IMG/VR virus record: IMGVR_UViG_3300020045_006965
Span: 1-27,194 of that record
Direction: 5' to 3' (one strand)
DNA from: a virus
Taxonomy: Duplodnaviria > Caudoviricetes
Length of the DNA stretch: 27,194 bases
Made by a program: the position numbers and the translations under genes. Of the stretch, positions 2,735 to 25,250 are shown one piece after another. The notes under the pieces were generated by a model, which was not told the origin of the DNA, did not search any database, and worked only from the letters and a program-made list of their open reading frames with translations. Every line of letters begins with the position of its first letter. The stretch's first letter is position 1.

Positions 2735-4534
2735 ATGAGAAGTTTTAAAGAGTACTTGACAGAAGCAAGAAACCAACATGAAGCACATGTGCAAGCCAAA
2801 CATTTCGATACAAATGAATATCCTGTAATTACAGATAATGGTGGACATATCTCAGAATCTGTGGCTCCTGATCCTGAAAATTCTAAACGAATCATCATTA
2901 CTCACGATGGTGCCAATAAACCAAAGGGTGTATCTGGATTGTCTGTACCTAAACATATGTGGAAAGGTACTGCACCATCTGAAGGTGGTGGTATTAGTAA
3001 AAAAACGGGCGAAATTACTAAACCTACCAAGGGAACTATGGGTATGGAAGATAGGAATAAAGCTCGTGCTGAAGTATACGGGTCTGAGCAACGTGAACCT
3101 CTGTCTGTACCGGAAATGGAAACTTCACATAAAACAACGTTAGAGCAACATTTTGCAAAACCAAAGGCACTACAACTTCATGATGAAAAAGAAGCTATTT
3201 CTCGTTTAAAATCAGCAAAACATCTAGATAGCGGTAGTACCACAGATGAATCTGAAAAAACAGATACTATCCTTCATGAAAAGGATAAAAGCGGTAAGGG
3301 ATATACTGCTGCGGCATGTAAGGGTGTCGCTGGGCATACTGTATATACATCTGGTGCAGGTAAAAATGCAGAGCATCGAATTGTAAATACATGTCCGGGC
3401 CAAACGCGTGGATGTGGTGGCGGTGTTGATGCACATGGTGTTGCCAATACAACTAAAGGTACTTGCTTCGCACCAAATGCTGAAGCACAATATCCTGCAG
3501 CATCTGTGCGCCGAGCATATCTGGATCAATCTAAACATGATCCAAAAATGACATCAGATTATATCTTAGCACATACGCATTCGATCCGTAAAGGTGCAGA
3601 TTCTGCTGATAAACAAGGAAAACATTTCGTTATCAGACCAAATACATTGAATGAAAATGATAGATCAACTAAACATGTTGTTGCTGGGTTGAATAAACAA
3701 CGAGCAGGTGAAGGAAAAGGGAGTATCATCAGCTATCAGTATTCTAAAGATAATGAGTTACATGACCCAGAAAATGGTGTACACGTCACACATTCCAATA
3801 TTGGACCAAAGGTTATCAATGATAAAACAGTAAAAGAGAATGTGAATCGGGATACTCGCCGCGTCAACAATACTGTTACTGCAACAACAACTTCTGGTGA
3901 AGATCTACGTAATGCACAGGGAAATAAAACACCGGCAAAACATTCATATTTGGTAACCAATCTTCCTCGTGGTGGCAATTTGGATATGGAATATCAGAAA
4001 CACGCAAAGCATATCAAGTATTGGGATAAAGGCACGAAACTATCTGATGAAGATATTAAAAGTACACCAAAAGAAGGTCACTTCGATGCTAAAGGTAAAC
4101 CAACAACACCAGAAGCTGCCCACAATGGATTTAAAGTTCTTGGTGATCGCAAATATGAATATCAGAAACAGCATATTCTACACCCACGAATGACTATGGT
4201 AAATGGTCATTCTATTCCTAGTGATTCTCGTTTTCAAGATGATGCTCATATGCCTAGCGACGCAAATAAGTTTAAATCTAAGAATGGAAAATCTGCAGGC
4301 GGCATCGTTGTGACTTCAGCAACAACTTCAACAAGTGGTGAGCGCAGTAATTCTTCATTTACTCACCGTATCGATCAACCAAAACTTGACCAGATCAAAA
4401 AAACTGGTGAACATGAAATCGATGCCCCAGAAGAACAAGAAGCTGCAAGAGGTCATGAGTACAATGGCGAAGAGCATTCCGTTAAAGTTTCTGATATTGG
4501 TGGGCTTAAAAAGAATAAAAAAACTTCTGTATAA
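2735..4534 (+). CDS. Large His/Lys-rich protein with T4 internal-protein-like N-terminus and a Gp88-like Cys motif
   Basis: MRSFKEYLTEA resembles the T4 capsid-targeting sequence; TCPG..GC...TCFA motif; TAAATA at 2702 and GGAG SD upstream. Confidence 0.6.
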   Translation: MRSFKEYLTEARNQHEAHVQAKHFDTNEYPVITDNGGHISESVAPDPENSKRIIITHDGANKPKGVSGLSVPKHMWKGTAPSEGGGISKKTGEITKPTKGTMGMEDRNKARAEVYGSEQREPLSVPEMETSHKTTLEQHFAKPKALQLHDEKEAISRLKSAKHLDSGSTTDESEKTDTILHEKDKSGKGYTAAACKGVAGHTVYTSGAGKNAEHRIVNTCPGQTRGCGGGVDAHGVANTTKGTCFAPNAEAQYPAASVRRAYLDQSKHDPKMTSDYILAHTHSIRKGADSADKQGKHFVIRPNTLNENDRSTKHVVAGLNKQRAGEGKGSIISYQYSKDNELHDPENGVHVTHSNIGPKVINDKTVKENVNRDTRRVNNTVTATTTSGEDLRNAQGNKTPAKHSYLVTNLPRGGNLDMEYQKHAKHIKYWDKGTKLSDEDIKSTPKEGHFDAKGKPTTPEAAHNGFKVLGDRKYEYQKQHILHPRMTMVNGHSIPSDSRFQDDAHMPSDANKFKSKNGKSAGGIVVTSATTSTSGERSNSSFTHRIDQPKLDQIKKTGEHEIDAPEEQEAARGHEYNGEEHSVKVSDIGGLKKNKKTSV

Positions 4535-13110: not shown

Positions 13111-13213
13111 CTCGGATTCGTATAGTGGAAAATACAGAGGTCTTCTTTTATTCTTTCGAAATAGAGAATAAAAGAAGCCCCTAACGTCAGTTCGATTCTG
13201 GCATCCGAGACCA
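13111..13213 (+). tRNA. tRNA-Arg (UCG or UCU) with 28-nt hairpin insert in the anticodon
   Basis: Acceptor CTCGGAT/ATCCGAG, D stem GTAT/ATAC, T arm GTCAG-TTCGATT-CTGGC, A-CCA; 103 nt, or 75 nt without insert. Confidence 0.8.
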
Positions 13214-13214
13214 A

Positions 13215-13260
13215 ATTAATATTAAAATACTTTAACGATATAAAGTATTTTAATATTAAT
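13215..13260. repeat. 20-bp perfect inverted repeat ('empty' member of the ATATTRAA stem family)
   Basis: ATTAATATTAAAATACTTTA-ACGATA-TAAAGTATTTTAATATTAAT. Confidence 0.9.
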
Positions 13261-13552
13261 GAAAGATAATATTATGACAGAACAAAGTGAAACTACAATT
13301 GAACCTATCCCGGATTCACCAGAAGAAGTCCGTGTTACACCGAACGAAGAAGTGATAGATCTTATTGAATCACATCCTCAACAACAATCTCGCGCTTTCT
13401 GGTACAAGATTAAAACACTCACAGAAGAATTCCATCTCACGGTTATTGCCATTACTTCTACTGGTGCGCGAGAAGGTGTTGCTCAACAATTTCCTGGTGC
13501 AGCTGTTGCTTATCTAGGTGTAAGTGATAAAATTATGCAAGTTAACGGATAA
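13259..13552 (+). CDS. Hypothetical protein (start may be 13274)
   Basis: 97-aa ORF. Confidence 0.7.
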   Translation: MKDNIMTEQSETTIEPIPDSPEEVRVTPNEEVIDLIESHPQQQSRAFWYKIKTLTEEFHLTVIAITSTGAREGVAQQFPGAAVAYLGVSDKIMQVNG

Positions 13553-13573
13553 CTATGTTATAATTAATTCGAA

Positions 13574-13648
13574 TCCGCTGTAATTCAAAGGTTAGAATAA
13601 TCTCTTTATAAGGGATCTATCTGTGTTCGAGTCACAGCAGCGGTACCA
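13574..13648 (+). tRNA. tRNA-Ile (UAU)
   Basis: (T)CCGCTG/CAGCGG(T), ATTC/GAAT, ATCTC-TT TAT AA-GGGAT, CTGTG-TTCGAGT-CACAG, A-CCA; TGTTATAAT promoter ends at 13564. Confidence 0.85.
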
Positions 13649-13711
13649 AACACTGGTTAATATAGTGAACCACATTTTAAAAACTATCAATTCAATCTAA
13701 GGAAATTTATT

Positions 13712-13906
13712 ATGCACATCAAAATCCATCAAAAATTTACATCTCGCCGCACTGGTGATGTTATTAAAGTCACTAAAATTGAACGTTCTACTGTGAACTC
13801 TAAATGGGATCGTTACCTAATTTCCGATACAGATTCTTACGGTAAAGTTATTAAAGGAACTCAACGTTCTGTATTTTCAAATTCTATCCAACGTCGATAT
13901 CTATAA
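13712..13906 (+). CDS. Hypothetical basic protein
   Basis: AAGGA SD, 64 aa. Confidence 0.7.
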   Translation: MHIKIHQKFTSRRTGDVIKVTKIERSTVNSKWDRYLISDTDSYGKVIKGTQRSVFSNSIQRRYL

Positions 13907-13914
13907 TACTTTAA

Positions 13915-14271
13915 ATGAGATATGGGGTTATAGGCTCTCGCAGTTTTTTAGATTTCAATCTATTGAAAACTGTTCTGGATAAACATTTCATATCTCAAAT
14001 AATATCTGGTGGTGCTAGAGGTGCAGATTCTTTAGCTGCCAGATATGCAAAAGATAATAATATTTCATTGATAGAATATTTACCAGATTACACTAAATAT
14101 AAAAAGAAGGCACCGTTCATCAGAAATAAATTAATTGTTTCAAATTCTGATGTGATGATAGCTTTCTGGGATGGGATATCTACTGGAACTAAGCATTCTC
14201 TTGATTATGCTAAAAGTAAGAAGATCAAATCCATAATAATTAATTTTTCTGGAATCATTTCTATATATTAA
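13915..14271 (+). CDS. SLOG-family (DUF2493/YspA-like) protein
   Basis: VIGSR.F, ISGGARGAD, IRN..IV, AFWDG.S.GT motifs. Confidence 0.85.
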   Translation: MRYGVIGSRSFLDFNLLKTVLDKHFISQIISGGARGADSLAARYAKDNNISLIEYLPDYTKYKKKAPFIRNKLIVSNSDVMIAFWDGISTGTKHSLDYAKSKKIKSIIINFSGIISIY

Positions 14272-14279
14272 GGAATAAG

Positions 14280-14921
14280 ATGGCATCTATCAATATCGAA
14301 GATTTATTTGAAATAGAAACTCGCGAACCGAGTTCATCATTCATCAAGACAGCTAAATCAGAACTTTTTTCTCACCAAGTATTTTTTGACGAAGATATCG
14401 GGTCACCTGCTAAGTACAGGGATTTAATCAATCTTCTATATACATGTACAGACGATCATGAGTTTAATTTCTTTATGAATACTTCTGGTGGGGCAATGTC
14501 ATCTGCTATTGCTATTATCGAAGCAATTAAGGCAACAGATGGTAAAGTACGCGCGATTATTGTTGGGGAGTGTCATTCTGCCGGATCTATTATCGCTCTC
14601 AATTGTCATGAAATTGTTGTGTCTGATTCTGCTATGATGCTCTGTCATACAGCAAGTTATGGCACAGGTGGGAATACACATAATGTCAAGATTCATTCAG
14701 ATTTCTCATCGAAATATGTTAATAAACTTCTTGATGATACCTATACAGGGTTTGTATCTTCCTCAGAAATGATTGACCTAAAGAAGGGTATTGAAGTCTG
14801 GTTTGATTCTGAAGAAATTGGAAAACGATTAGAATCGCGTTTAAAGCATCAAACTGAAAAGGCTAGTGCTACCATTCAACCTAAAAAGAAACGCGGTAAA
14901 ACAGTTCCTGTGGCTTCCTAG
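14280..14921 (+). CDS. clpP: ClpP-like protease
   Basis: NTSGG, CHSAGS (catalytic Ser), MLCH (catalytic His). Confidence 0.8.
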   Translation: MASINIEDLFEIETREPSSSFIKTAKSELFSHQVFFDEDIGSPAKYRDLINLLYTCTDDHEFNFFMNTSGGAMSSAIAIIEAIKATDGKVRAIIVGECHSAGSIIALNCHEIVVSDSAMMLCHTASYGTGGNTHNVKIHSDFSSKYVNKLLDDTYTGFVSSSEMIDLKKGIEVWFDSEEIGKRLESRLKHQTEKASATIQPKKKRGKTVPVAS

Positions 14922-14931
14922 ACCTATTTAC

Positions 14932-14955
14932 AAGGTGTCTAATTGTAGATACCTT
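14932..14955 (+). terminator. 10-bp hairpin, possible terminator
   Basis: AAGGTGTCTA-ATTG-TAGATACCTT. Confidence 0.5.
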
Positions 14956-14968
14956 AATTGACTATATT

Positions 14969-16648
14969 ATGATTGATAAAATTGACCTTGAAAAACAAAT
15001 CCTAGTTGCATATGAAGAACTAGGATTTTCCCCTAGGGGAAACCAAACATCGATCTGTTACTCAGTTCTCGATGCCTTCCTAAATAAAGATAAAAAGAAT
15101 GTTTGTCTAGTTGCTGGCACGGGTATCGGAAAGTCGATTTTGGGTGCAGTTATCTCTAGAGTGATCGATCACTATACACCAGATGATTCGGCACTTGCAT
15201 CCATTATTACTATGGGTACAAATTCTTTGGCTCAACAGTATGCAGAATCATTCGATAAACTCGGTAAATATGAATTTTTCCAAGTAAAAGGTGCATCTAA
15301 TTATGCTTGTCCATTTATGGAATCTCAATTATCCGCAACAGTAAAAACTGCTGATGCTTGTGTCAAGAAAAATCTCATTCCACAAGAATCTGACAAGTAT
15401 TGTTCTAAGTGCGAATATGATGCATCAAAAAAAGTAATCAATTCTACAGCTAATCTGATTACTAATTACACATACTTTATGATTTCTGCTTTAGCATCGA
15501 ATCATTTAAAAGAGCGAAAATTAAACGTTTTTGATGAGGCCCATACTTTATCTGATTGGTTCTGCTCTTATGCTGAAATTCTAGTATCAGTTGAACTTAT
15601 TGACCGGTATATTAAAGAACTTGGTGATACAAACGGCAAATGTGATGATCAAATTGCGGGTCTTATCATGCTCAAACAAAAAGTATCATCAAATGAAGTA
15701 GGTGATGGTAATTATCTCCAATATCTACAAGTATTGCTACAACTATATAGATCTATCGCTTTTACACTAGCTAGTCAATCATCCGCTCTAAAATCTGTTG
15801 ATGTGGTGAAATCTGGTAAGTTCGATAAAATGGCATCTAAATATGATTCTCTTGCATCAAAGATATCTGATTTCTTTGAAAATGATTATGATCATGTATT
15901 TGATAATGCTATCCCAAATACTTTTACTATCAAAACCATTTTCATTGGTAAGATGATGGAAAAGTTACTTACAACATATAATTTATTCATGTCTGCCACT
16001 ATTACAGAGCAATATGCATTTGATGTTCTTGAATTAGATAGGGGCGCAACCGAATATATTTTACTTGACCCAGTATTTCCCCCAGAAAATAAACCATTAT
16101 TATTTTTAGGTACATCAGCTCTGAATTATAATTCTCTAAAAGATCCGGATATTATTGATAATATGAAAGACACTATCAAGAAGATTGTTGGATTCCATAA
16201 AGACCAAAAAGGTTTGATTATCTCACCATCATTTTATCTAGGATCACAGATGGTATATGGGTTGCGCGGAACTAAGGTGTTTGAACATAAATCTGGAGTT
16301 AATCTATCAGATCTAATCCTATCATTTAAATCATATAAAGGTTCTGCTGTCCTAGTATCACCTTCCATCTGGGAAGGATTGGATTTTTCTGGTGATGATT
16401 CTCGTTTTCAAGTGATCTTAAAATCACCTTATCCGGCTCTAGGAGATAAACGGCTTAAACATATTGCAGATAATTATCCTAGTATATACCAGGAGATGAC
16501 ATTACTCAAAATATTGCAAGGTATTGGGCGATCCATCAGAACTCCGGAAGATAGTGCTACGACGTACTTCCTCGACCCATCATCTAAAAAGTTGTATAAT
16601 AGTAAGTTAAATGTATGGAAAAATCATTACGACGTTAAAACACCATGA
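14969..16648 (+). CDS. DinG/XPD-like SF2 helicase
   Basis: AGTGIGKS, DEAH, MSAT, EGLDF, QGIGRSIR; Cys cluster after KG.SNY.C. Confidence 0.88.
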   Translation: MIDKIDLEKQILVAYEELGFSPRGNQTSICYSVLDAFLNKDKKNVCLVAGTGIGKSILGAVISRVIDHYTPDDSALASIITMGTNSLAQQYAESFDKLGKYEFFQVKGASNYACPFMESQLSATVKTADACVKKNLIPQESDKYCSKCEYDASKKVINSTANLITNYTYFMISALASNHLKERKLNVFDEAHTLSDWFCSYAEILVSVELIDRYIKELGDTNGKCDDQIAGLIMLKQKVSSNEVGDGNYLQYLQVLLQLYRSIAFTLASQSSALKSVDVVKSGKFDKMASKYDSLASKISDFFENDYDHVFDNAIPNTFTIKTIFIGKMMEKLLTTYNLFMSATITEQYAFDVLELDRGATEYILLDPVFPPENKPLLFLGTSALNYNSLKDPDIIDNMKDTIKKIVGFHKDQKGLIISPSFYLGSQMVYGLRGTKVFEHKSGVNLSDLILSFKSYKGSAVLVSPSIWEGLDFSGDDSRFQVILKSPYPALGDKRLKHIADNYPSIYQEMTLLKILQGIGRSIRTPEDSATTYFLDPSSKKLYNSKLNVWKNHYDVKTP

Positions 16649-16658
16649 AAGGAAATCT

Positions 16659-17030
16659 ATGAGTCAAGAACCATCACCATATCCATGCCCAACCGGGGTA
16701 GTACCGCGCCCTACAGTAGGTAGTATCCAGTTTGGTCCCATCACACCAAAAATTGATAATGCATATATCATAGATGGGATTGTCGCATCTATCAAAACTA
16801 AAGATAAAAAACATTCTCATTATTTCAAAGATGTGTCTCATCTAGACACAATTGATGTGTATCGTGTGCTTGATTTATTTCAAGTAACAGATCCAGCAAT
16901 CGCTCATGCTGCTAAGAAATTGCTAGTTGCTGGCGGTAGAGGTGCAGGTAAAGATATTAATAAAGATATAGCAGAAGCTATCGATACACTAATCCGGTGG
17001 CAAGCAATGAGGGCAGAGGATAATGTCTGA
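16659..17030 (+). CDS. Conserved phage protein
   Basis: IDVYRVL..F.VTDP...HA.KKLL.AG.RG..KD motif; AGGA SD before ATG 16659. Confidence 0.7.
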   Translation: MSQEPSPYPCPTGVVPRPTVGSIQFGPITPKIDNAYIIDGIVASIKTKDKKHSHYFKDVSHLDTIDVYRVLDLFQVTDPAIAHAAKKLLVAGGRGAGKDINKDIAEAIDTLIRWQAMRAEDNV

Positions 17031-17562
17031 TATTATCCTCGATCACCGGATGACCGATATTGAGGTTTTATCTGAAGAGACTAATGCTGTGATAGTGTCG
17101 ATAGCATGTGTGAAATTTTCTATGAAAACGTCATATACAGAATCATTCTGTGTTAATATTAACCCTGCTTCATCCAAAGCACTGGGTCTACATATTAGCA
17201 AAGATACTCTGAATTGGTGGAAGAAACAGAAACCAGAGGCATTAAAATCTTGGATGCATTCTAGAATTAATTTACCTGATGCATTGGATCAGTTTATAGA
17301 ATTCTGTGGTACATATAAGAATACTATCCATTGGGCGCAGGGTATTGCTTTTGATTTCCCTATTCTAGATTCATCATTAAAGGTGTGTGGAAAGACTCCA
17401 CCTTGGAAATATTGGAATGTCTATGATGCACGTACAGCTAATTATTTGGGTGCGGTAAATCCATTTGATGAGCCGCGAGTTGGTCAGTACCACTCCGCAT
17501 TAGATGATTGTTACACACAGATCCAGAATCTAAAGAAAGCAATAGGAATTACACATGAGTAA
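17023..17562 (+). CDS. DEDDh 3'-5' exonuclease (DexA-like)
   Basis: DIE, G..FDFPIL, D.RT, HSALDD. Confidence 0.85.
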   Translation: MSDIILDHRMTDIEVLSEETNAVIVSIACVKFSMKTSYTESFCVNINPASSKALGLHISKDTLNWWKKQKPEALKSWMHSRINLPDALDQFIEFCGTYKNTIHWAQGIAFDFPILDSSLKVCGKTPPWKYWNVYDARTANYLGAVNPFDEPRVGQYHSALDDCYTQIQNLKKAIGITHE

Positions 17563-17920
17563 TGGATTTTATGATAACTATGAGTACATCTTCAATATGA
17601 TTACTAAGAATGCTGCACAGTGTCTAGTATGTAACGATATCATCGAATCCAAACACCAGCACGACTATGTAACATGTTCATGTGGCGCAATATCTGTCGA
17701 TGGTGGTTTGGCTTATAAACGACGTTGTGCAAAAGACTTTGTTAATCTTAAAGAGTTATCTGAAAGTATAAAGTACACCGAAGATGAGTTGACATCATAT
17801 ATTCACAATGGTATCCGACAATCTATTACAGATAAGATCTATTCAAATAGTTTCCACGAAAATACAGTCGCGGCAGCAAAATATTTTCGGCAATTATGGT
17901 ATCCACATTATGAACCATAA
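17555..17920 (+). CDS. Zinc-binding conserved phage protein
   Basis: N.AQC..C.DIIES...HD...CSCG...VDGG. Confidence 0.75.
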   Translation: MSNGFYDNYEYIFNMITKNAAQCLVCNDIIESKHQHDYVTCSCGAISVDGGLAYKRRCAKDFVNLKELSESIKYTEDELTSYIHNGIRQSITDKIYSNSFHENTVAAAKYFRQLWYPHYEP

Positions 17921-17966
17921 TAAATAAGTGTTATAATCTAATTTTAACTATGAAAGAAGTGAACCT

Positions 17967-18632
17967 ATGAAAATCAGCAAAAGCACCATCGACATTCTAA
18001 AGAATTTTTCCAGTATTAATCAGAATATTCTGATCAAAGAGGGTTCTGTTGTGACTTCACGTACTGTTGCCAAGAATCTTTTTGTATCCGCAACAGTTGA
18101 CACTGTATTTGACCAAGAATTTGGTATCTACAATCTTAACCAATTTTTAGGTGTTCTATCATTATTTTCAGATCCTGATCTAGAATTCACTGATAAAGCA
18201 GTTACTATTTCTCAAGGTAAGAATAAAGTTCAATATTTGTTTGCTTCACCAGAAGTTCTTGATTATCCTGAAAAGGCAATTAATATGCCACCGGTAGATG
18301 CAGAGTTTGAACTTACAGAGGAAAATCTTAAGAGTTTATTGAAAGCAGGTGCTGTTTTATCATCGACTGATCTTCGTATCTCTGGCGATGGTGAAACAAT
18401 TGTTTGCACAACTATGGACCCAAAAAATCCAGCATCAAATACTTTCTCAGTAGAGGTAGGTGTAACTGATCGTACTTTCGATGCATACATTAAATTGGAA
18501 ACTCTCAAGTTGATCTCTGGATCATATAAGGTTTCTCTGTCTGCAAAGAAGATCACTAAGTTTGAGAACACTACTATCGATTACAATTTATATATCGCAA
18601 ATACATCCGACAGTTCATGGACAAGCGTCTAA
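17967..18632 (+). CDS. 45: DNA polymerase sliding clamp (T4 gp45-like)
   Basis: MKISK.T..ILKNFSSIN..I, FGIYNLNQFL, Y.VSLS. Confidence 0.93.
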   Translation: MKISKSTIDILKNFSSINQNILIKEGSVVTSRTVAKNLFVSATVDTVFDQEFGIYNLNQFLGVLSLFSDPDLEFTDKAVTISQGKNKVQYLFASPEVLDYPEKAINMPPVDAEFELTEENLKSLLKAGAVLSSTDLRISGDGETIVCTTMDPKNPASNTFSVEVGVTDRTFDAYIKLETLKLISGSYKVSLSAKKITKFENTTIDYNLYIANTSDSSWTSV

Positions 18633-18634
18633 AC

Positions 18635-18675
18635 TGTGTTATAATTAATCATCTTAATAATTAAAGGAACATATT
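18635..18675 (+). promoter_or_regulatory. Promoter-leader-SD cassette, copy 4
   Basis: TGTGTTATAATTAATCATC...AAAGGAA. Confidence 0.7.
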
Positions 18676-18825
18676 ATGAAACCAACAGCCAACTTCCGGA
18701 TGAATTCTACCACCAAGTACTTGCTATCTACGATCACAGATCCAGAAGCGCGTAATGCGTTCAAATCGAACATGATCCAAGCGCAACTTGCAAGTGAGAT
18801 TAAGCCGGTTAAAGAGAAGAAATAA
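18676..18825 (+). CDS. Small basic protein (49 aa), not in ORF track
   Basis: MKPTANFRMNSTTKYLLSTITDPEARNAFKSNMIQAQLASEIKPVKEKK with AGGA SD and own promoter. Confidence 0.75.
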   Translation: MKPTANFRMNSTTKYLLSTITDPEARNAFKSNMIQAQLASEIKPVKEKK

Positions 18826-18829
18826 TCAG

Positions 18830-18940
18830 TAATATCCGAATCCTCTGCCTGTTGAAAGATACAACGCATGATATCTAGAATTTACTAGTGAAACCTATGG
18901 ACGCATAGGTCTACGGAAATCTCGTCTGTGATAAGCAGAC
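18830..18940 (+). ncRNA. Run of three hairpins, candidate structured RNA
   Basis: ATATC..TGC..GTTG/CAAC-GCA-GATAT; ACCTATG-GACG-CATAGGT; GTCTG-TGATAAG-CAGAC. Confidence 0.45.
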
Positions 18941-18942
18941 AT

Positions 18943-19052
18943 CATATTAAAACATACTGTTTAACTGTTAGGTGACACGAATCAGCGAACTATATTAAAT
19001 TGTAGCAGGTTGATGTCATAGGTTCGAGTCCTGTACAGTATGTTTTAATATG
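18943..19052 (+). ncRNA. tRNA-like RNA enclosed in an 18-bp perfect stem
   Basis: CATATTAAAACATACTGT/ACAGTATGTTTTAATATG; T arm ATAGG-TTCGAGT-CCTGT abuts the 3' arm. Confidence 0.7.
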
Positions 19053-19091
19053 GTAAGTTAAAAGGAATGTGGGCAGTACCATAGCAATGAC

Positions 19092-19224
19092 CATATTGAA
19101 GCACTTTTGTGGGGTAAACAATGAGGGCAGAGTAGTTCCTTGCTCATGTTATCAACGGCATGAATAGGATAAGACGCTGAGCGACCTGATTTTATTCTGT
19201 ATGTAAAGAAAGTGCTTCAATATG
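19092..19224 (+). ncRNA. Structured RNA enclosed in a 16-bp perfect stem
   Basis: CATATTGAAGCACTTT/AAAGTGCTTCAATATG; inner stems GCAGAGTAG/TTATTCTGT and TCATGTT/GGCATGA with G-U pairs. Confidence 0.65.
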
Positions 19225-24085: not shown

Positions 24086-24203
24086 GGACGATTGGGTGAG
24101 TGGTTGAAACCGAGGGACTGATACGGAACATCTGTTAAAACGGGTGTTCAAATAAATCCCTTCCTTAAAAAGCACGCAGGTTCAAATCCTGCTCCGTCCA
24201 CCA
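24086..24203 (+). tRNA. tRNA-Tyr (GUA) with 32-nt hairpin insert in the anticodon
   Basis: GGACG/CGTCC acceptor (2 inner mismatches), GGT/ACC D stem, AGGGA/TCCCT, long variable region, GCAGG-TTCAAAT-CCTGC, A-CCA. Confidence 0.75.
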
Positions 24204-25107: not shown

Positions 25108-25163
25108 ATATAAATGAAATTTCATTAATAAATATGTTATAATTGAACTTTAGTGTATAAAGT

Positions 25164-25236
25164 TCTGGATTAGTTCAGTTGGCAGAATGCATCATTTGTA
25201 ACGATGAGGTCGCTGGTTCGATTCCAGCATCCAGAA
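25164..25236 (+). tRNA. tRNA-Thr (UGU)-like, no encoded CCA, acceptor stem extended to 20 bp (25151-25248)
   Basis: TCTGGAT/ATCCAGA, GTTC/GAAT, CATCA-TT TGT AA-CGATG, GCTGG-TTCGATT-CCAGC. Confidence 0.8.
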
Positions 25237-25250
25237 CTTTATATATTATC

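What the first reader, a model, noticed from the sequence alone, without database searches (positions are those of the whole stretch)
13215..19224. One inverted-repeat family in empty and cargo-loaded states, with compensatory changes
The left arms ATATTAAAATACTTT (13219), ATATTGAAGCACTTT (19093) and ATATTAAAACATACT (18944) are related; the first two match at 12/15. Every difference is mirrored in the right arm, so pairing stays perfect (20, 16 and 18 bp). The enclosed segment is 6 nt in the first, ~100 nt of structured sequence in the second and a 74-nt tRNA-like core in the third. Inference: a reusable carrier stem, either an RNase III-type processing stem that releases cargo RNAs or a DNA-level cassette end.
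Basis: partly seen in the sequence, partly recalled or inferred. Interest (0 to 1): 0.8.

Follow-up and report, generated by a model that had tools for sequence, protein, structure and literature searches.

The report
RNase III frames carrying phage RNAs
In this phage, small folded RNAs sit inside a shared double-stranded frame that recurs in hundreds of uncultured phage tRNA clusters and likely marks cuts by the host enzyme RNase III; the same predicted cut signal brackets an insert in a neighbouring tRNA, which would be an undescribed way to splice tRNAs.

Summary
The three stems are real (20, 18, 16 bp; interiors 6, 74, 101 nt) in a T4-like phage contig. The stems at 18943 and 19092 belong to a family of 16-17-bp RNA frames seen in about 610 + 300 IMG/VR stretches and almost no cellular genomes. 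Copies usually start on a tRNA's CCA and enclose unrelated structured cargos (273 cargos, 149 clusters); five CCA-docked empty copies exist elsewhere. An orthologue of 19092 shows four compensatory pair changes. The frame fits E. coli RNase III rules in one register: 11-bp helix, U·G/U-A distal box, 2-nt overhang. The 13215 hairpin is a probable, unproven member. A DNA-cassette role is disfavoured. No RNA data were found, so cleavage is inferred and cargo function is unknown. This scan noted the frame family before on other genomes; I found no paper on it. New here: the adjacent tRNA-Arg(UCU) has a 28-nt anticodon-loop insert whose exact removal needs an RNase III-type staggered cut; 7 of 9 such inserts carry the distal box. 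This suggests RNase III-plus-ligase tRNA splicing (about 35%).

The parts
13111..13213 (+). tRNA-Arg(UCU) gene with CCA and a 28-nt hairpin insert at 36/37 (13147-13174). Predicted RNase III cuts after 13146 and after 13174 would remove the insert exactly.
   Evidence: ARAGORN in intron mode; called tRNA-Arg(tct) after removal of the insert; pair table with U·G at 9 and U-A at 10; missed by default ARAGORN and Rfam
13215..13260 (+). 'Empty' frame: 20-bp perfect hairpin with a 6-nt loop, 2 nt after the tRNA-Arg CCA and before the next ORF. It has 11 bp above the predicted cut (after 13223 and 13253). Probable family member.
   Evidence: 13/16 match to the family consensus, p=0.011 vs shuffled arm; best RNase III register 7 but pair-shuffle p=0.095-0.124
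18618..18645 (+). sigma-70-like promoter (11 of 12, extended TG) that likely drives the small ORF and the RNA cluster
   Evidence: best-scoring site, where total promoter-like hits are at chance level; function inferred
18676..18825 (+). 49-aa ORF of unknown function heading the cluster; relatives often lie in tRNA arrays that carry the frames
   Evidence: no Pfam hit; its closest metagenome relatives L180-L182 show no frame stems
18943..19052 (+). Loaded frame C: 18-bp stem around a tRNA-elbow-like cargo (tRNA-like unit 18954-19041; G18G19 at 18971-18972; T-arm 19018-19034; no CCA). Predicted product 18949-19048 (100 nt).
   Evidence: 16/16 match to the family consensus; fold z=-5.7; register 7 best, p=0.015-0.028; coordinates
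19092..19224 (+). Loaded frame D: 16-bp (+1 U·G) stem around a 101-nt conserved cargo of unknown kind. Predicted product 19098-19220 (123 nt).
   Evidence: orthologue L001 10168-10299, 91% mean column identity, 4 compensatory stem pairs; register 7 best, p=0.002-0.003
25151..25248 (+). CCA-less tRNA-Thr(UGU) whose flanks extend the acceptor stem by 13 bp. A staggered cut at tRNA position 1 would leave A73-C74.
   Evidence: 6 of 43 CCA-less vs 0 of 710 CCA-bearing tRNAs have such an extension

Best explanation
The stems are members of a widespread phage RNA frame family that is likely cut by host RNase III, which would release interchangeable structured cargo RNAs and separate tRNAs and mRNAs in long phage transcripts. 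Shown: the stems, their family, docking on tRNA ends, covariation, cargo diversity, and the match to published RNase III determinants. Inferred: a cut after frame position 6 and a 2-nt staggered cut on the right arm free an RNA with an 11-12-bp terminal stem (100 nt for C, 123 nt for D). The empty form at 13215 would act as a bare cut site between tRNA-Arg and the downstream mRNA. Cargo C most likely works as a tRNA-elbow mimic or decoy; the role of cargo D is not established. Cargos are probably exchanged by recombination between conserved frames and flanking tRNAs.
For: Family breadth: 124 loci seen in 13 of 64 parts of IMG/VR (about 610 estimated) and 128 in 26 of 64 for longer interiors (about 300), against 4 in GTDB with a pattern one base stricter. 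Context: 116 of 124 loci have a tRNA within 300 nt; 89 of 118 oriented elements start on the last CA of a CCA and 36 of 118 end on the next tRNA's first base; 68 and 23 of 113 in the long set. RNA strand: position 15 is U·G in 81 of 118 and C·A in 0; position 16, not in the pattern, is U-A in 112 of 118; position 17 is paired in 99 of 118 and 18 in 64 of 118. Pertzev and Nicholson give distal box UA/UG, a 4-bp proximal box and an 11-bp minimal helix, which places positions 7-17 on the half-site. With the in vivo pair matrix, register 7 is best for all three window stems at -20.9, -21.4 and -22.6, above the paper's -25.5 cut-off. 115 of 118 family members beat pair-shuffled controls at p<0.05 in register 7, against 0-8 in registers 5, 6, 8, 10. 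D orthologue: 4 compensatory pairs. None of 5 large family-bearing phage records (2 complete) encodes RNase III, which points to the host enzyme.
Against: No cleavage or expression was observed. The host is unknown and the rules are those of E. coli. On the full 24-position score register 9 rivals register 7 (best in 34-46 vs 40-50 of 118) and passes the shuffle test in 40 of 118; the antisense strand passes in 36 (register 7) and 60 (register 9) of 118. Position 7 is G-C, a catalytic antideterminant, in element D and in 20 of 118 and 54 of 113 members. Proximal-box position 1 is mostly A-U, not G-C, and the two pairs between the cuts are A-U/U-A, whereas G-C is preferred in vivo. The A·C at position 7 (69 of 118) would be a G·U on the other strand. 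The frame is more invariant than RNase III's degenerate rules need, but the scan patterns fixed most positions and members share ancestry, so counts are not independent. The 13215 hairpin is not significant (p=0.095-0.124), and 45 of 51 short-loop hits have no tRNA nearby and are mostly AT-rich junk. C and D in this window are not docked on a tRNA.
Confidence: 0.68

Rival explanations
1. The frame is a sequence-specific handle for a phage or host protein, or binds RNase III without being cut. tRNA-end processing by RNase P and exonucleases releases the whole stem-loop, and the protein carries the cargo as a ribonucleoprotein.
For: Near-invariant sequence across unrelated phages; G-C at proximal-box position 4 uncouples binding from cleavage and is present in D and many members; elements often fill the whole gap between a CCA and the next tRNA (36 of 118).
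Against: No conserved partner gene was found: the 49-aa ORF's closest relatives lack frames, and 16 nearby ORFs gave no RNA-binding Pfam family. Helix length and U·G/U-A placement match a cleavage half-site.
Confidence: 0.15
2. The stem mainly hides the tRNA's CCA tail in a duplex, protecting precursors from tRNA-attacking host defences; the cargos are passengers.
For: The CCA pairs with the right arm in most members. Docking is concentrated on tRNA-Lys(UUU) 76, Glu(UUC) 23 and Gln(UUG) 18 of 164; tRNA-Lys is a known defence target (PMC3014915 passages), and a CCA-tail-cutting defence exists (PMC12851939, search listing only).
Against: C and D in the window and four frames in L001 have no tRNA beside them; cargo D is conserved; protection would not need a distal box.
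Confidence: 0.07
3. The arms are DNA-level cassette or miniature-transposon ends that move cargos into tRNA 3' ends.
For: Related cargos occur behind different tRNAs (23 of 29 clusters); cassette content differs between the window and L001; tRNA ends are common integration sites (general knowledge).
Against: G·U pairs lie on the tRNA strand at positions 10, 11, 13 and 15 with almost no A·C counterpart; arms covary as pairs while cargo D stays conserved; no recombinase or transposase among 42 window ORFs, though the contig is a 27-kb fragment.
Confidence: 0.06
4. Applies to 13215 only: it is an unrelated AT-rich hairpin (pause, terminator or stabiliser) whose likeness to the family is chance.
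For: 19 of 20 arm bases are A/T; likeness to 18943 is p=0.053 and the RNase III fit p about 0.1; it starts 6 nt off the usual CCA register; L001 has a different stem at this place.
Against: 12/15 with 19092, p=0.0003; 13/16 with the consensus, p=0.011; exactly 11 bp above the predicted cut; lies next to a tRNA end; not scored as a terminator; empty copies exist elsewhere. The confidence given is for this one element.
Confidence: 0.3

Closest known systems
Phage T7 RNase III processing signals (R1.1 and the minimal substrate microR1.1; PMC1540722, PMC3867540, PMC8708148)
   Same: Repeated RNase III hairpins that divide a polycistronic phage transcript; same box layout (UA/UG distal box, 11-bp helix).
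   Different: T7 sites are short hairpins between mRNA cistrons, cut on one strand. These frames are fully paired, dock on tRNA ends and enclose 30-105-nt structured cargos that differ between phages.
RNase III stalks around 16S and 23S rRNA (PMC8708148)
   Same: Flanking complementary arms enclose an RNA that a double cut releases.
   Different: One cargo per stalk and no shared frame sequence; here a 16-17-bp frame recurs around at least 149 cargo clusters.
23S rRNA intervening sequences (PMC8708148)
   Same: A hairpin insert in a stable RNA excised by RNase III; the closest analogue of the tRNA-Arg insert.
   Different: IVS are 100-200 nt and leave the rRNA in pieces. The tRNA inserts are 26-30 nt in the anticodon loop, and decoding would need religation.
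Archaeal/eukaryotic BHB tRNA introns and bacterial group I tRNA introns (PMC4090602)
   Same: Insert in the anticodon loop whose removal restores a normal tRNA.
   Different: Continuous helix at 36/37 with no bulge-helix-bulge; far too short for group I. [quoted passage not shown]
T4 stable RNAs species 1 and 2, and RNase III cutting of the T4 tRNA-cluster transcript (recalled; search and PMC3014915 did not confirm)
   Same: Non-tRNA stable RNAs and an RNase III cut in a T4-type tRNA transcript.
   Different: No repeated frame is recalled for T4; the window cluster has no match among 50,697 cultured phage records.
Bacterial Y RNAs (YrlA, RF02553)
   Same: Long terminal stem plus a tRNA-like domain, as in cargo C.
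   Different: No Rfam YrlA hit over C; the T-arm is last, in tRNA order; no Ro60 among the window ORFs.

Membership tests
RNase III substrate (E. coli rules) | at least 11-bp helix above the cut | tested here: met
   positions 7-17 paired in all three window stems; position 17 paired in 99 of 118, position 18 in 64 of 118
RNase III substrate (E. coli rules) | distal box U-A and U·G | tested here: inconclusive
   family: U·G 81 of 118, U-A 112 of 118; window stems have the U-A but C-G (C) or U-A (D, 13215) in place of U·G
RNase III substrate (E. coli rules) | proximal box: A-U/U-A at positions 2 and 3, no G-C/C-G at position 4 | tested here: inconclusive
   positions 2 and 3 met in all three; position 4 met in C and 13215, G-C in D and in 20 of 118 and 54 of 113 members
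RNase III substrate (E. coli rules) | in vivo pair-matrix score above -25.5 in a unique register | tested here: met
   -20.9, -21.4, -22.6, register 7 best; shuffle control significant for C and D, not for 13215
RNase III substrate (E. coli rules) | observed double cut with 2-nt 3' overhang | not testable with these tools
   no RNA holder listed
tRNA (cargo C) | cloverleaf with D-stem, 7-nt anticodon loop and CCA-acceptable end | tested here: not met
   T-arm and G18G19 present; no D-stem or 7-nt loop; not called by ARAGORN or Rfam
Y RNA (YrlA) | RF02553 match and linked Ro60 | tested here: not met
   no hit over C or D at E<=1; no Ro60 in 42 ORFs; contig is a fragment
TIGR array | tandem repeats with fixed short spacers beside a Nop-domain Tas gene (recalled; paper seen as listing only) | tested here: not met
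   interiors of 2-105 nt, dispersed; no Nop domain in 16 ORFs scanned with Pfam
Integron attC site or MITE | core recombination motif or target duplication, strand-neutral repeats, cognate recombinase | tested here: inconclusive
   strand-biased wobble argues against; no recombinase in window; target duplications were not searched systematically
BHB tRNA intron (tRNA-Arg insert) | bulge-helix-bulge at the junctions | tested here: not met
   continuous helix; 20 archaeal-labelled inserts found by the same scan have a different geometry, at most 6 of 10 pairs
Group I tRNA intron (tRNA-Arg insert) | catalytic core of some 200 nt or more, RF00028 | tested here: not met
   28 nt; no Rfam hit
Spliced intron (tRNA-Arg insert) | ligated mature tRNA observed | not testable with these tools
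   no RNA data; Rnl1- and Rnl2-type ligases are present in the one complete carrier genome G009 but also in G006, where no insert was found

The most novel reading that the evidence does not exclude
These phages use one RNase III grammar four ways: empty separators, carrier frames for a large uncatalogued repertoire of small RNAs, acceptor extensions that mature CCA-less tRNAs, and anticodon-loop introns. In the last, host RNase III excises a 26-30-nt hairpin at 36/37, leaving 3'-OH and 5'-phosphate ends that a phage ATP-dependent RNA ligase joins. This would be protein-assisted tRNA splicing in bacteria with neither a BHB endonuclease nor a ribozyme.
Probability: 0.35. Interest if true: 0.9.

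Novelty: new variant of a known kind. Interest (0 to 1): 0.68.

Why it matters
The frame marks both ends of well over a hundred kinds of phage small RNA that Rfam lacks, so it gives a direct way to catalogue and test them, including tRNA mimics that may act against host defences. It also explains how CCA-less and tightly packed phage tRNAs could be matured. If the anticodon inserts are spliced by RNase III and a ligase, that would be a third route of tRNA intron removal, and default annotation misses these tRNA genes.

Tried and rejected
Expression: no RNA holder listed; this is no evidence either way. The DNA contigs laid did not cover the tRNA-Arg gene. Cultured phages: only 27-nt chance hits for the cluster, no match for the 49-aa ORF, one 19-nt chance hit for a family element. 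Rfam: nothing over the three stems; in 40 representative loci (of about 370 fetched by frame patterns) no family reached its cut-off inside a frame, and one sub-threshold antisense T-arm hit overlapped L332. Phage-encoded RNase III: 0 of 5 records. The 17-position 'core' register score (116 of 118 at register 7) is biased by my choice of window, so I rely on the pair-shuffle control. The 49-aa ORF as obligate partner was rejected: L180-L182 lack frames. RNase III geometry was rejected for the tRNA-Tyr insert (24121-24152) and the L001 1889 insert, whose hairpins sit about 4 nt out of register (read by eye). Short-loop scan: most hits are TATA-rich hairpins, so it is weak support for 13215. Whole-matrix register for the tRNA inserts is mixed: the boundary is best in 5 of 9 at pseudocount 0.5 and 2 of 9 at 0.01; in the window it is best at 0.01 and second at 0.5. 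Literature searches without a description of the family or the inserts: (listings only; older subscription papers and bioRxiv supplements are not covered). PMC7162821 has no occurrence of 'intron' or 'RNase III' in its main text; its supplements were not read.
Full report
Setting. The window is the whole held record, a 27,194-base linear virus contig. Its genes (ribonucleotide reductase, PhoH, sliding clamp, clamp loader, RegA, DNA polymerase) are those of a T4-like phage. The closest cultured clamp loader is 54% identical and the host is unknown. One close relative, L001, has an 85% identical clamp and the same gene order.

Observation. The three perfect stems are at the stated places, with arms of 20, 18 and 16 bp and interiors of 6, 74 and 101 nt. 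Four perfect repeats of 15 bp or more lie in the window, against none in 98 and one in 2 of 100 Markov resamples. Arm likeness against shuffled arms is p=0.0003 (13215 vs 19092), 0.019 (18943 vs 19092) and 0.053 (13215 vs 18943). Mirrored differences are automatic in perfect repeats. True covariation appears in L001, where element D has four of 16 pairs changed on both sides in an alignment of 91% mean column identity. At the same locus L001 carries three more frames with other cargos and no copy of cargo C. One low-depth contig holds part of cargo C behind a different left arm, and another holds D joined to a later gene (depth under 5, weak).

The family. Loci fetched with the neighbouring 49-aa ORF showed the same frame in the tRNA arrays of other phages. 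A strict pattern found 124 loci in 13 of 64 parts of IMG/VR (about 610 estimated), a looser one for longer interiors 128 loci in 26 of 64 (about 300), and a one-base stricter pattern only 4 in GTDB, all in metagenome-assembled contigs. Of the 124 loci, 116 have a tRNA within 300 nt. Of 118 unique oriented elements, 89 begin on the last two bases of a tRNA's CCA and 36 end on the first base of the next tRNA; the long set gives 68 and 23 of 113. The 273 unique cargos fall into 149 BLAST clusters, and 24 carry a T-loop near the 3' end against 0.74 expected, so cargo C belongs to a recurring tRNA-like class. In 23 of 29 clusters with two or more docked members, the cargo lies behind more than one tRNA type. 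Empty copies exist: five with 4-9-nt loops start on a CCA. However, 45 of 51 short-loop hits have no tRNA nearby and are mostly AT-rich hairpins. C matches the consensus 16/16, D 14/16 and the 13215 hairpin 13/16 (p=0.011). C and D are members; 13215 is a probable member.

RNA or DNA. On the tRNA strand, position 15 is U·G in 81 of 118 and C·A in none, although the pattern allowed both. Positions 10, 11 and 13 behave alike. Only position 7 is A·C (69 of 118), and it lies next to the predicted cut, where the cleaved T7 R1.1 substrate also has a non-standard pair. With exact docking on tRNA ends and no recombinase among 42 ORFs, this favours an RNA role.

Mechanism. Pertzev and Nicholson (PMC1540722, passages) define an 11-bp minimal helix, a distal box of U-A and U·G, and a 4-bp proximal box. 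Setting frame position 7 next to the scissile bond puts U·G at 15 and U-A at 16 on the distal box; position 16 was not in the pattern and is U-A in 112 of 118. Pairing falls from 99 of 118 at position 17 to 64 at 18. With the in vivo matrix of Altuvia et al. (PMC6212723, section 27, passages and Supplementary Table S4), register 7 is best for all three window stems and above the paper's -25.5 cut-off. Against shuffled pair order, 115 of 118 family members pass p<0.05 in register 7, as do C (0.015-0.028), D (0.002-0.003) and four L001 frames (0.001-0.02); 13215 does not (0.095-0.124). Against this: register 9 competes on the full score, the antisense strand passes in 36-60 of 118, G-C at position 7 (a catalytic antideterminant) occurs in D and many members, the pairs between the cuts are not the G-C preferred in vivo, members share ancestry, and the rules come from E. 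coli. None of five large carrier records encodes RNase III. I therefore infer, but have not shown, that host RNase III frees a 100-nt RNA from C and a 123-nt RNA from D and cuts 13215 to part tRNA-Arg from the downstream mRNA (coordinates). C keeps the T-loop and G18G19 but lacks a D-stem, anticodon loop and CCA; an elbow mimic or decoy is my best guess. D's function is open.

Two more uses of the geometry. First, tRNA-Thr (25164) lacks CCA and its flanks extend the acceptor by 13 bp. Such extensions occur in 6 of 43 CCA-less and 0 of 710 CCA-bearing tRNAs in the fetched loci, all six with C at 74; the matrix puts the best cut at tRNA base 1 in 3 of 6. Second, directly before the 13215 hairpin lies a tRNA-Arg(UCU) with a 28-nt insert at 36/37. 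The insert pairs on with the anticodon loop, so restoring the 7-nt loop needs a staggered cut with a 2-nt 3' overhang, and the helix above has U·G at 9 and U-A at 10. Scans that did not ask for the distal box, plus one neighbour in a locus, gave nine distinct inserts of this geometry, counting the window. Seven of nine have U·G/U-A at 9/10; the most in 100,000 pair shuffles was five. Rows left out: L693 (near-duplicate of L482), L627 and the L644 Lys gene (selected on the box), L675, L710, L718 (not confirmed as tRNA) and L702 (archaeal). Twenty archaeal-labelled inserts from the same scan do not show the geometry. In G008 and G009 the same tRNA also has a 20-21-bp extended acceptor. G009, the only complete carrier, encodes Rnl1- and Rnl2-type ligases, but so does G006, where no insert was found. 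Whole-matrix support for the insert boundary is mixed, the inserts may share ancestry, and the genes could be inactive or merely nicked. [quoted passage not shown]

Comparison with what is known. The frames work like T7 RNase III signals and rRNA processing stalks, and the insert like a 23S rRNA intervening sequence (PMC3867540 section 7 and passages; PMC8708148 passages). They differ in being one conserved frame around many cargos, docked on tRNA ends. Rfam has no family for the window elements or for frames in 40 representative loci. Eight literature searches (listings only) and passages of PMC7162821, PMC7824862 and PMC3014915 showed no description; older T4 work is recalled only, and unread supplements may bear on this. 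After I had formed and scored my reading, the scan's notes showed the same frame family reported from other genomes; these are unchecked AI notes, not independent support.

Verdict. Observation confirmed. Carrier-stem reading largely supported, with RNase III release at 0.68. The 13215 hairpin is the weakest member. Novelty: new variant of a known kind. The tRNA-splicing reading has probability about 0.35 and would be categorically new. Interest 0.68.

Noticed in passing
window 24086-24203 (+): tRNA-Tyr(GUA)-like gene with a 32-nt hairpin insert at 34/35 (24121-24152); called tRNA-Tyr after removal, and L001 has an uninterrupted tRNA-Tyr at the same place. It fits neither RNase III nor BHB geometry.
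   Followed up: partly
L001 1877-2006: CCA-less tRNA with a 19-bp extended acceptor and a 34-nt anticodon insert (Met/Ile ambiguous); the hairpin is offset like the window's tRNA-Tyr insert, which may mark a second insert class.
   Followed up: partly
L644: Two neighbouring tRNAs, Arg(UCU) and Lys(UUU), both carry 36/37 hairpin inserts with U·G/U-A at 9/10.
   Followed up: partly
family loci L052-L451: Frames dock mostly on tRNA-Lys(UUU) 76, Glu(UUC) 23 and Gln(UUG) 18 of 164, while no tRNA type exceeds 22 of 273 in protein-fetched arrays.
   Followed up: partly
window 18828-18942 and 19056-19090: Non-coding stretch with several small hairpins before C (z=-1.7); 18868-18917 recurs in another context in a contig of depth 38. 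A small hairpin lies between C and D.
   Followed up: no
window 18676-18825: 49-aa ORF conserved in phage tRNA arrays, no Pfam family; by eye it resembles a ribbon-helix-helix protein (untested).
   Followed up: partly
L001 9821-10076: Two frames are linked by a third 15-bp stem made from the right arm of one and the left arm of the next, so alternative pairings are possible.
   Followed up: no
L001 2922-3016: At the place of the 13215 hairpin, L001 has a 16-bp stem of different sequence around a degenerate T-loop cargo.
   Followed up: partly
window 11543, 11839, 12068, 18638 (also 12574, 23434, 25114): Repeated extended -10 promoter plus ribosome-binding block before small ORFs and tRNAs.
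   Followed up: no
window 2735-4534: 599-aa ORF with only a weak GP88 Pfam match below cut-off.
   Followed up: no
L036 10423-10887; L041 1097-1513: A GOLLD RNA and a permuted betaproteobacterial-type tmRNA lie in frame-bearing arrays.
   Followed up: no
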